Positions 35,563-36,123 of a stretch of 64,000 bases of DNA are shown piece after piece. Source of the stretch: the human T2T-CHM13v2.0 reference genome, Homo sapiens. Under the pieces are notes generated by a model. The model had not been told where the DNA came from. It did not search any database and saw only the letters and a program-made list of their open reading frames with translations. The first letter of the stretch is position 1. The number at the start of each line of letters is the position of its first letter. Position numbers and translations under genes: made by a program. The stretch lies in NCBI GenBank assembly GCA_009914755.4, contig CP068257.2, forward strand, positions 8,544,001-8,608,000. The letters run 5' to 3'.

Positions 35563-36123
35563 GTGATCAAGGCTTCTAAAAGTGAAATGCAAGTTGTTAC
35601 CAGTAAAGTTTATATCTTCCATTCAGCCCAGCTCATTTGCCAGAAAATTCAGATGAGTGGATTGGCCAGGCCATCTGGCAATGATGAAAATTTTAGTTTA
35701 AAAATGTGTCATTTGTCTGTATTGGCATTCCTTCCACCTGATAAAATTCCAGGAGCTTTTGATAAATTAAAACCACAATTGCCTGAAGAAGACAGAAATA
35801 TTACATACTGGTTTGAAAATAATGATGTGCAAGGTAGGATAAGAAGTCATTTAGGCAATGGTGTTGCTGTTCAATCAAAAGTATTGTTTCTGAAAAATGA
35901 GTGTCCTGTATATGAGGGCCTGCAAAATGGATTTCCACATACTCAAAATAATAGACGAGAATGGCATAGAAGATTGGAAAATGTAATAGGAAATGTTCAT
36001 GTCAGTGTGTATCAAATTATAGAAGAATTTCAAAAAGAGCAGTGCCACGTAGAAAATGAATGTGAATGTATTTTATCAGGAGAGTCAAATCCTAAAAACA
36101 AAAAAGACAACTATTCATCGTGA
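35563..36123 (+). CDS. Uncharacterised 186-aa ORF. Its C-terminal half weakly resembles the conserved C-terminal helix region of DDE transposases (IS1595/Merlin- or MULE-type). Probably a decayed DNA-transposon remnant, not a validated gene
   Basis: An open frame of 561 nt in AT-rich, otherwise ORF-poor DNA. The motif string 'ECPVYEGL...HTQNNRREWHRRLENVIGNVHVSVYQIIEEFQKEQ' has the order and spacing of the DDE-transposase C-terminal block (D-x-Y..., hTN-x-x-E-x-W/N-x-x-L-K-x-x-x-G-x-H, then a hydrophobic helix). 'CHVENECEC' might be a degenerate Zn-binding remnant. This is pattern recognition only; no search was run. Confidence 0.2.
   Translation: MIKASKSEMQVVTSKVYIFHSAQLICQKIQMSGLARPSGNDENFSLKMCHLSVLAFLPPDKIPGAFDKLKPQLPEEDRNITYWFENNDVQGRIRSHLGNGVAVQSKVLFLKNECPVYEGLQNGFPHTQNNRREWHRRLENVIGNVHVSVYQIIEEFQKEQCHVENECECILSGESNPKNKKDNYSS

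What the first reader, a model, noticed from the sequence alone, without database searches (positions are those of the whole stretch)
35563..36123. 186-aa ORF with DDE-transposase-like C-terminal motifs in an otherwise ORF-poor region
It is the only sizeable non-repeat-derived ORF in the arm-type sequence. The motif block '...ECPVYEGL(18)HTQNNRREWHRRLENVIGNVHVSVYQIIEEFQKEQ' resembles the conserved C-terminal 'hTNxxExWxxLKxxxGxH + helix' signature shared by IS1595/Merlin and Mutator-like transposases. It is followed by a Cys/His-containing tail ('CHVENECEC'). If real, it is a fossil of a cut-and-paste DNA transposon (a human Merlin- or MuDR/Ricksha-type family) rather than a host gene. An exapted fragment is also conceivable, but I have no support for that.
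Basis: inference. Interest (0 to 1): 0.5.

Follow-up and report, generated by a model that had tools for sequence, protein, structure and literature searches.

The report
Fossil Mutator-like transposase gene fragment
The open reading frame is the best-preserved piece of the transposase gene of a long-dead Mutator-family "jumping gene" lodged next to a primate centromere; it is a neutrally decaying fossil, not a working gene, but it shows clearly that this transposon family once lived in our ancestors.

Summary
The 186-codon ORF (35563-36123, +) is real and far longer than chance allows in random DNA of this composition. It is not a gene. It corresponds to residues ~265-450 of a ~480-aa FLYWCH+MULE (Mutator-like, "Phantom"-type) transposase. 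The rest of that gene lies around it in other frames (34988-36205), with 6 frameshifts and 3 stops. The relic sits inside a terminal-inverted-repeat-bounded element, 32194-37378. That element has 2.48 kb of its own sequence plus three nested younger insertions. Its ~95-nt ends are built of AATCCCGAA-type repeats and start GAGTTTGG. At least six independent insertions found in public contigs have the same ends, and so does, in recognisable form, an intact relative in a shrimp genome. Catalytic residues are mutated (D191N, D260S, C281Y, W378C). Conserved residues are lost at the same rate inside and outside the ORF. Related copies differ with dN/dS of about 0.85-1.7 and carry stop codons. The IS1595/Merlin option and the Cys/His zinc-finger tail are wrong. 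It is most likely the autonomous form of the human Ricksha (MuDR) family, but that could not be tested here. This is an ordinary fossil of modest interest, since a 2019 survey found no MULE transposase in vertebrates.

The parts
32185..32193 (.). Candidate 9-bp target-site duplication, left copy (GTTTACTCC)
   Evidence: With the ends fixed independently from other copies, the flanks match 6 of 9 (GTTTACTCC / GTGTGGTCC), P = 0.013 at a fixed position. This is suggestive only.
32194..32288 (+). 5' terminal inverted repeat with subterminal AATCCYRAA repeats; starts AGGTGAGGATCATAATCCC (family consensus GAGTTTGG.TCATAATCC)
   Evidence: 79-nt inverted match to 37285-37363 at 72%, E = 3e-6. At least six independent loci have the same terminus, and the shrimp element shares the motif.
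32289..34673 (-). Nested younger insertion: a free Alu-type monomer (32289-32312 plus 34561-34673), itself split by a 2.25-kb LTR retroelement (about 32313-34560; LTRs 32318-32657 and 34189-34560)
   Evidence: The monomer is flanked by its own 14-bp TSD, AAGGTCTAAATTCT (32275-32288) and AAAGTCTAAATTCT (34674-34687). The LTR pair is 77% identical over 372 nt. The names for these repeats come from my recollection of the consensus sequences and were not tested.
34688..34760 (+). 5' subterminal region of the element, resuming after the nested insertion
   Evidence: Matches the inner part of the 3' arm (34681-34713, 82%) and the 5' subterminal sequence of independent copy L016.
34761..34987 (+). 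Unassigned 5' segment where the 5'UTR and FLYWCH zinc-finger codons should lie; not recognisable
   Evidence: No Pfam FLYWCH hit. Frameshift-aware alignment of four homologues' N-termini gives z = 0.4-1.1 against shuffles. The segment is about 108 nt shorter than the equivalent stretch in the shrimp copy.
34988..36205 (+). Transposase pseudogene, residues ~72-480 of the ~480-aa FLYWCH-MULE protein. Frameshifts at 35094, 35189, 35274, 35375, 35421 and 36106; stops at 35073, 35554 and 36128
   Evidence: tblastn with P0004 gives E = 8e-90. The family HMM gives collinear pieces in three frames, with the best piece at E = 4e-62. Frameshift-aware DP alignment. Pfam MULE E = 3.3e-5.
35563..36123 (+). 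The reported 186-codon ORF, equal to transposase residues ~265-450: remnant of the (C/D)xxH motif (YIFH), the conserved W (now C) and the catalytic-Glu block
   Evidence: 62% identical to P0004 with no gaps. 36% of family-invariant residues are lost.
36208..36906 (+). 3' non-coding part of the element
   Evidence: Homologous at 68-79% to the region next to the TIR in independent copies L026, L027, L018/L024 and the L040 cluster.
36907..37197 (-). Nested Alu insertion
   Evidence: Perfect 14-bp TSD, AATAAATGCTTTTT, at 36893-36906 and 37198-37211.
37212..37378 (-). 3' subterminal repeats and 3' terminal inverted repeat; the reverse complement starts GAGTTTGGGCCACAGCCC
   Evidence: Three AATCCYRAA motifs fall here. 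The window holds 11 in total, 4 of them in the ~300 nt of the two arms, P = 5e-8.
37379..37387 (.). Candidate 9-bp target-site duplication, right copy (GTGTGGTCC)
   Evidence: as for the left copy.

Best explanation
The ORF is the longest surviving open stretch of the transposase gene of a dead, nearly full-length autonomous Mutator-like (MULE) DNA transposon. The transposon belongs to the FLYWCH-finger ('Phantom'-type) lineage and inserted in an ancestor of primates roughly 50-90 million years ago. The element spans 32194-37378, with 2.48 kb of its own sequence interrupted by an Alu-type monomer, an LTR element and an Alu. When alive it would have worked like characterised MULEs such as Muta1; this is inferred, not shown here. 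The transposase binds the AATCCCGAA-type subterminal repeats in the ~95-nt inverted ends. It cuts the element out with its D-D-E centre, leaving hairpins on the flanking DNA, and joins the free 3'-OH ends to a new target, making an 8-10-bp duplication. Shown here: the homology, the gene's extent and lesions, the inverted ends, the existence of a dispersed family with the same ends, and neutral evolution. The ORF covers only the C-terminal part of the catalytic region (after the second Asp). It has lost key residues and has no function today. The locus was later copied several times by segmental duplication near the centromere.
For: Homology: the stitched relic matches 480-aa FLYWCH+MULE proteins at E = 1e-91. 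tblastn with P0004 gives E = 8e-90. The family HMM matches the ORF piece at E = 4e-62, with collinear upstream pieces in other frames and nothing elsewhere in the window. Pfam MULE gives E = 3.3e-5. Ends: 79-nt inverted arms, E = 3e-6, with motif enrichment P = 5e-8. The terminus GAGTTTGG.TCATAATCC is shared by at least six independent loci. An intact shrimp relative has the same kind of AAAATCCCGAA-repeat termini. Independent copy L051 has the TIR fused directly to the ORF region (79% identity) and keeps IMTDLE, KICF and QCIW, all of which the window has lost. This ties the ends to the gene and shows that the ancestor was intact. Decay: 36-40% of invariant residues are lost in the ORF block against 35-37% upstream, including D191N, D260S, E262stop, C281Y and W378C. 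Neutrality: against L001 there are 2 synonymous and 7 non-synonymous changes (dN/dS 0.85), with ORF divergence of 1.6% against 1.4% in the flanks. Against L059 there are 2 and 14, with two stops. Against L060 there are 4 and 19, with two stops. Many 171-aa truncated variants exist. Age: the nested LTR pair is 77% identical, the TIR arms 72%, and the window against L051 79%.
Against: Pfam MULE stays below the curated cut-off (24.7 against 27.6 bits), so family assignment rests on transitive homology. The FLYWCH finger is not detectable. The TSD is weak: 6 of 9 here, and 1 of 9 in the one complete MITE copy, L040. The 672-nt block containing the ORF has no indel, while the 446 nt upstream have five frameshifts. 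That is unlikely under uniform neutral decay (roughly P = 1e-4 to 0.06, depending on the model) and is explained only by selection bias in how the ORF was picked.
Confidence: 0.9

Rival explanations
1. A chance open frame in AT-rich DNA with no coding ancestry.
For: Pfam finds nothing in the ORF alone. The region has 39% G+C.
Against: Random DNA is expected to give 0.006 such stretches per window. The ORF piece scores E = 4e-62 against a profile of intact transposases and aligns without gaps at 62% identity to P0004.
Confidence: 0.005
2. A fossil of an IS1595/Merlin-type transposase.
Against: No PF12762 hit at E up to 10. All 49 homologues that carry a domain carry MULE PF10551, often with FLYWCH PF04500. 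The ends are long, about 95 nt, repeat-rich TIRs.
Confidence: 0.01
3. An exapted (domesticated) fragment: the C-terminal half of the transposase was kept open by selection for a host function during part of primate evolution.
For: There is no indel in 672 nt (35434-36105) and only one stop, against five frameshifts in the 446 nt upstream. The local neutral indel:substitution ratio from the LTR pair (4:53) predicts about 5-9 indels.
Against: Invariant residues are lost at the same rate as upstream. dN/dS is 0.85-1.7 against three related copies, and the ORF diverges at least as fast as its flanks. L059, L060 and the 171-aa variants carry stops. No source names or annotates the protein. There is no ATG at the ORF start. 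The ORF was picked because it is long, which is selection bias. Conditional on six frameshifts, the largest-gap test gives P = 0.057.
Confidence: 0.04
4. The coding relic and the inverted arms are unrelated neighbours: the arms belong to a separate MITE family that happens to flank a transposase fragment.
For: The arms are 2.7 and 1.2 kb from the coding relic. No clean TSD is present. The FLYWCH region between the 5' arm and the gene is unrecognisable.
Against: After the three nested insertions (each with its own TSD) are removed, the element is 2.48 kb, against 2.3 kb for the shrimp element. L051 joins the same TIR directly to the same coding sequence. The 3' non-coding region between gene and arm is shared with other copies. 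The shrimp relative of this transposase has the same terminal motif.
Confidence: 0.03

Closest known systems
FLYWCH + MULE ('Phantom'-type) Mutator transposases of invertebrates, for example P0004 (marine metagenome contigs) and P0008 (Palaemon carinicauda, CM072496.1)
   Same: Collinear homology over residues 72-480, at 62% identity in the ORF block. The conserved blocks are the same: WIMDGTFKTVP, IMTDFE, CFFH, PRTQNxVEAWH. Element size is similar, 2.3-2.5 kb. Termini start G[A/G]GTT and are built of AAAATCCCGAA repeats.
   Different: The window copy is dead: 6 frameshifts, 3 stops, and the catalytic D, D, C and W residues replaced. It lacks a recognisable FLYWCH finger. Its host is a primate, whereas a 2019 survey found no MULE transposase in vertebrates (PMC6446971). 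After correction for decay, its ancestor was only about 80% identical to P0004, so it is a sister lineage and not the same element.
RICKSHA / RICKSHA_0 (Repbase; Dfam Ricksha, Ricksha_0, _a, _b, _c), the only MuDR-class repeats catalogued in the human genome
   Same: Both are human, old and highly diverged, and both belong to the MuDR superfamily. RICKSHA has long TIRs, reported as 79 bp (PMC1431705), and the arm match here is 79 nt. Both exist mostly as short non-autonomous copies.
   Different: Per PMC6446971, the Repbase entries are not listed as autonomous elements. RICKSHA carries a captured ERVL/MLT2B piece (PMC1431705, PMC3531169), and I found no such piece inside this element. I had no Ricksha consensus, so identity is a strong lead and not a result.
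Muta1 of Aedes aegypti, a biochemically characterised active animal MULE (PMC5499845)
   Same: The layout of defining residues is the same in the intact relatives: the D-D-E triad, a (C/D)xxH motif 15-45 aa after the second D (here 21 aa: D260, C281..H284), a conserved W upstream of E (W378, E396), and subterminal repeats needed for transposition.
   Different: Muta1 is active and belongs to a different MULE clade. The mechanism is transferred here by inference only.
Merlin1_HS / IS1595-like transposons
   Same: They are DDE cut-and-paste elements with fossils in the human genome.
   Different: No sequence or profile similarity was detected. They belong to a different superfamily.

Membership tests
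MULE / Mutator superfamily transposase | Significant match to the MULE transposase domain (Pfam PF10551) | tested here: inconclusive
   The frameshift-corrected relic gives E = 3.3e-5 and 24.7 bits, below the curated cut-off of 27.6. Its homologues at E = 1e-91 all pass PF10551, and a family HMM gives E = 4e-62. Homology is secure; the Pfam threshold is missed because of decay.
MULE / Mutator superfamily transposase | D-D-E triad, (C/D)xxH motif 15-45 aa after the second D, and a conserved W before E (PMC5499845) | tested here: met
   All positions are alignable and invariant in intact relatives (D191, D260, C281-H284, W378, E396). In the window they read N, S, Y-H and C, with E shifted by one residue. 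The architecture is therefore present but inactivated. Independent copy L051 still has D260, E262, C281 and W.
MULE / Mutator superfamily transposase | Terminal inverted repeats bounding the element | tested here: met
   The arms 32194-32288 and 37284-37378 match over 79 nt at 72%, E = 3e-6. At least six independent loci share them.
MULE / Mutator superfamily transposase | 8-10-bp target-site duplication | tested here: inconclusive
   6 of 9 matches at ends fixed from other copies, P = 0.013. The one complete MITE copy, L040, shows 1 of 9. An unconstrained scan gave nothing consistent.
Phantom subclass (FLYWCH-finger MULEs) | N-terminal FLYWCH zinc finger (PF04500) | tested here: not met
   Present in P0004 (E = 1e-14) and most close homologues. 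Not detectable in window 34690-34985: no Pfam hit, and z = 0.4-1.1 against shuffles. The relic descends from this lineage but has lost the feature.
RICKSHA (human MuDR family) | Sequence identity of the 79-bp TIRs and internal sequence to the Repbase/Dfam consensus | not testable with these tools
   No Repbase or Dfam library is available. The only evidence is the coincidence of TIR length (79 nt, against PMC1431705) and the fact that Ricksha is the only human MuDR family listed (PMC5753468).
RICKSHA (human MuDR family) | Captured 3' ERVL/MLT2B segment (the RICKSHA proper composite) | not tested
   No ERVL or MLT2B reference was available. The element's own 2.48 kb shows no LTR-like direct repeats other than the nested, TSD-flanked insertion.
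IS1595 / Merlin | DDE_Tnp_IS1595 domain (PF12762) | tested here: not met
   No hit at E up to 10 for the ORF or for the stitched relic.
SWIM / zinc-finger tail | Conserved CxCxnCxH pattern (PF04434) | tested here: not met
   No Pfam hit. The Cys residues of 'CHVENECEC' are not conserved in relatives (QQHVENECERIL, QNQVELNIESIL and others).
Host protein-coding gene or exapted exon | Purifying selection (dN/dS well below 1) and a frame conserved in related copies | tested here: not met
   dN/dS is 0.85, about 1.7 and about 1.2 against L001, L059 and L060. L059 and L060 carry stops.

The most novel reading that the evidence does not exclude
This locus is the previously undescribed autonomous (transposase-encoding) partner of the human Ricksha-type MITEs. 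That would be direct proof that bona fide Phantom-type MULE transposons colonised the primate or eutherian lineage. [quoted passage not shown]' (PMC6446971). The closest sampled living relatives are in crustaceans and share the terminal repeat motif, which hints at horizontal acquisition.
Probability: 0.25. Interest if true: 0.5.

Novelty: new member of a known kind. Interest (0 to 1): 0.3.

Why it matters
As a piece of genome function it does not matter: it is inert, neutrally evolving DNA in a duplicated pericentromeric region. Its value is for the catalogue and for evolutionary history. It is a nearly complete autonomous MULE relic in a primate, with gene, TIRs and non-autonomous relatives all identifiable. 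A 2019 superfamily-wide survey could not find any MULE transposase in vertebrate 'MuDR' entries and called for re-evaluation of the eutherian Ricksha elements (PMC6446971). If the coding part is not already modelled in Dfam, it supplies the missing link between those MITEs and a specific transposase lineage. It also gives a starting point for reconstructing the ancestral element and testing how it entered mammals.

Tried and rejected
(1) Pfam on the ORF alone gave no hit. This is misleading because the MULE model lies upstream of the ORF.
(2) I searched for the FLYWCH finger with tblastn, a family HMM over all six frames, Pfam, and frameshift-aware alignment against shuffles. Nothing was found.
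(3) An unconstrained TSD scan around the arms gave nothing consistent with the TIR ends.
(4) I looked for TIRs in the 2.5-2.7-kb P0004 contigs and in the Trichuris locus L010. None were found; the contigs are too short or the copy is degraded.
(5) I tested whether the relic's ancestor was nearly identical to the crustacean element, which would point to recent horizontal transfer. This was rejected: only 11 of 35 P0004-specific residues are shared, so the ancestor was about 80% identical.
(6) A scan of viral contigs for the family, as a possible vector, found no relatives.
(7) The papers by Pace & Feschotte (2007) and Marquez & Pritham (2010) are not held in the library.
(8) From memory I suspected that 34857-34985 is an LTR fragment. 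It has no other copy in the window and I could not test this, so I left it unassigned.
(9) The exaptation reading was considered because the 672-nt block has no indels. It was rejected on dN/dS, stops in related copies and equal loss of invariant residues.

Full report
OBSERVATION. The GTG start is only the ORF tool's bacterial convention, and the first ATG is at 35587. Stop-to-stop it is 188 codons, the second longest open stretch of the window. Random DNA of this composition would give 0.006 such stretches per window, so it is not a chance frame. The window starts with 7.8 kb of alpha satellite and contains Alu-like sequence, so this is primate pericentromeric DNA.

WHAT IT IS. Pfam finds nothing in the ORF alone. 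Reading the upstream DNA in all frames shows pieces such as LMNGTFKTVP, QLYTVYAP and ITGKSE...IMTSF* that continue the ORF in other frames. A stitched 298-aa translation hits Pfam MULE (E = 1.1e-4). In the large protein collection it hits ~480-aa proteins carrying FLYWCH (PF04500) plus MULE (PF10551), down to E = 1e-91. These come from marine metagenomes (P0004), the shrimp Palaemon carinicauda (P0008), Trichuris suis and Glomeromycete fungi.

tblastn of P0004 onto the window gives E = 8e-90. A profile built from 16 full-length relatives matches the ORF piece at E = 4e-62, with collinear weaker pieces upstream in other frames and nothing elsewhere in the window. A frameshift-aware alignment maps residues 72-480 onto 34988-36205. 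There are frameshifts at 35094, 35189, 35274, 35375, 35421 and 36106, and stops at 35073, 35554 and 36128.

The reported ORF is residues ~265-450. Its stop at 36121 results from the 36106 frameshift, and the true C-terminus (...AHNLSM*) follows in frame +2 at 36205. Pfam's MULE model corresponds to residues 187-285, mostly upstream of the ORF, which explains the empty result. The N-terminal FLYWCH finger is not detectable.

THE WHOLE ELEMENT. An inverted-repeat scan found 74-79-nt arms at 32210-32287 and 37285-37363 that bracket the gene (72% identity, E = 3e-6). Three younger insertions sit between the arms, each with its own target duplication:
- a free Alu-type monomer (TSD AAGGTCTAAATTCT / AAAGTCTAAATTCT);
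- a 2.25-kb LTR element inside that monomer, with LTRs 77% identical;
- an Alu (TSD AATAAATGCTTTTT).
Without them the element is 2.48 kb.

Two independent lines show that the arms are this transposon's true ends. First, the shrimp genomic copy (L009) is a 2.3-kb element whose termini start GAGTTCC... and GGGTTTGG... and consist of AAAATCCCGAA repeats. The window arms share the terminus and the block TCATAATCCCGAATGTTGAA.TCC..AAAGATCAAAATCC. The motif AATCCYRAA occurs 11 times in the 64 kb, 4 of them in the ~300 nt of the arms (P = 5e-8).

Second, a scan of public metagenome contigs with the arm core returned 48 contigs. About half are this locus at 97-99.6% identity, including one from a human skin sample. 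Three match at 90-94%. The rest fall into at least six independent loci, each with a terminus closely matching GAGTTTGG.TCATAATCC...AAAGACACAATCCC.... These include a 468-bp MITE (L040), copies sharing the 3' non-coding region (L026, L027), and L051. In L051 the TIR is fused directly to the ORF region (35522-35795, 79% identity).

With the ends fixed at 32194 and 37378, the flanking 9-mers match 6 of 9 (P = 0.013). The one complete MITE shows no recognisable TSD, so I call the TSD inconclusive.

IS THE ORF FUNCTIONAL? No. At columns invariant in intact relatives, the window has lost 36-40% of residues inside the ORF block and 35-37% upstream. The losses include D191N, D260S, E262stop, C281Y and W378C. 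These are the catalytic Asp residues, the (C/D)xxH motif and the conserved Trp that define MULE and hAT transposases (PMC5499845). L051 retains IMTDLE, KICF and QCIW, so these losses happened after insertion.

Comparisons with related copies all point to neutral evolution:
- Against a 98.6% copy (L001), the ORF shows 2 synonymous and 7 non-synonymous changes (dN/dS 0.85) and diverges at 1.6% against 1.4% for the flanks.
- Against L059 (96.3%), it shows 2 and 14, including two TGA stops.
- Against L060 (95.6%), it shows 4 and 19, including two stops.
- The protein clusters hold more than 880 variants that mix the same few substitutions, many of them truncated at 171 aa, and none is named by any source.

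Neutral simulation keeps a stop-free run of at least 186 codons in 4-17% of trials.

One oddity remains. The 672-nt block 35434-36105 has no indel, while the 446 nt upstream have five frameshifts. The local neutral indel:substitution ratio (4:53 in the LTR pair) predicts about 5-9 indels. The largest-gap test conditional on six frameshifts gives P = 0.057. Because the ORF was chosen for its length, I attribute this to selection bias and give exaptation about 4%.

AGE AND RELATIVES. The TIR arms are 72% identical, the window and L051 are 79% identical, and the nested LTR pair is 77% identical. Together these imply roughly 0.12-0.2 substitutions per site since insertion, on the order of 50-90 million years; this is an inference from typical primate rates. 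The closest sampled intact relatives are the P0004 and P0008 crustacean-type elements. After correction for decay, the ancestor was about 80% identical to them. That makes it a sister lineage and is not evidence of recent transfer. No relatives were found in viral contigs.

COMPARISON WITH WHAT IS KNOWN. Repbase lists Ricksha, Ricksha_0 and Ricksha_a as the only human MuDR repeats (PMC5753468). [quoted passage not shown] Dupeyron et al. (PMC6446971) could not detect a MULE transposase in any vertebrate MuDR entry, stated that the eutherian elements need re-evaluation, and asked whether MULEs are really absent from vertebrates.

The element here is very probably the autonomous form of that family, but I had no Ricksha consensus, so membership is untested. 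'IS1595/Merlin' and the Cys/His zinc-finger tail are not supported.

VERDICT. This is a confirmed, well-delimited but dead and neutrally evolving MULE transposon fossil, so it is ordinary as genome content. It has modest specialist interest because it documents a bona fide MULE transposase relic with cognate TIRs and MITE relatives in a primate. Interest is 0.3. Novelty: a new member of a known kind, which would drop to 'already known' if Dfam already models the coding part.

Noticed in passing
window 1-7810: Alpha satellite: 171-bp monomers (341-bp dimers also scored) that are 80-84% alike. The window therefore lies at a centromere edge, which fits the many 97-99.6% paralogous copies of the locus found in public contigs.
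   Followed up: partly
window 35434-36105: No indel over 224 codons of the pseudogene, although the 446 nt upstream carry five frameshifts. Substitution decay is not reduced here. I attribute this to selection bias, but it is not strictly explained.
   Followed up: yes
window 62018-62650: The longest open stretch of the window (211 codons, + strand), overlapping other long open frames on both strands. No Pfam hit.
   Followed up: partly
window 38942-39191 (and 38816-39506): G+C-rich 31-bp minisatellite, 8 copies at 83% identity, under long open frames on both strands. No Pfam hit.
   Followed up: partly
window 26412-26668: 43-bp tandem repeat, 6 copies, 94% matches.
   Followed up: no
window 42803-43169: Purine-rich (GAAG)n/(GGAA)n microsatellite. 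It explains the strong GC and AT skew at 42-44 kb.
   Followed up: no
window 15739-16299 (region 10-22 kb): Reverse-transcriptase relic (Pfam RVT_1, E = 2.6e-8) inside a 12-kb stretch with an A-rich strand. This looks like an old LINE-1 in sense orientation.
   Followed up: partly
L034:123-206 and L051 (reverse strand) 438-526: A 3'-type end and a 5'-type end of the family share TIRs that are 98.8% identical over 84 nt, although both copies are otherwise decayed. They may be the two ends of one element with homogenised TIRs, or a recent duplication.
   Followed up: no
L028, L046, L048 against window 31.7-33.8 kb and 37.7-38.5 kb: Contigs at 90-94% identity join the 5' part of the element, in inverted orientation, to sequence downstream of its 3' end. 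This is a rearranged paralogue, or the orthologue in a more distant primate.
   Followed up: no
L009:7455-7707 and 10010-10244: The shrimp element (7709-10009) sits inside a long (TA)n microsatellite, and its flanks read ATGTACAT / ATGTATAT, a possible 8-bp TSD. The called gene P0008 (414 aa) is truncated, but the DNA continues in frame-shifted form to ...AHNLSF*.
   Followed up: partly
L059:272-706: The public gene call P0088 reads through two TGA codons as Trp, so a non-standard code was used. This shows that some 'intact' ORF variants in the protein collection are artefacts of gene calling.
   Followed up: yes
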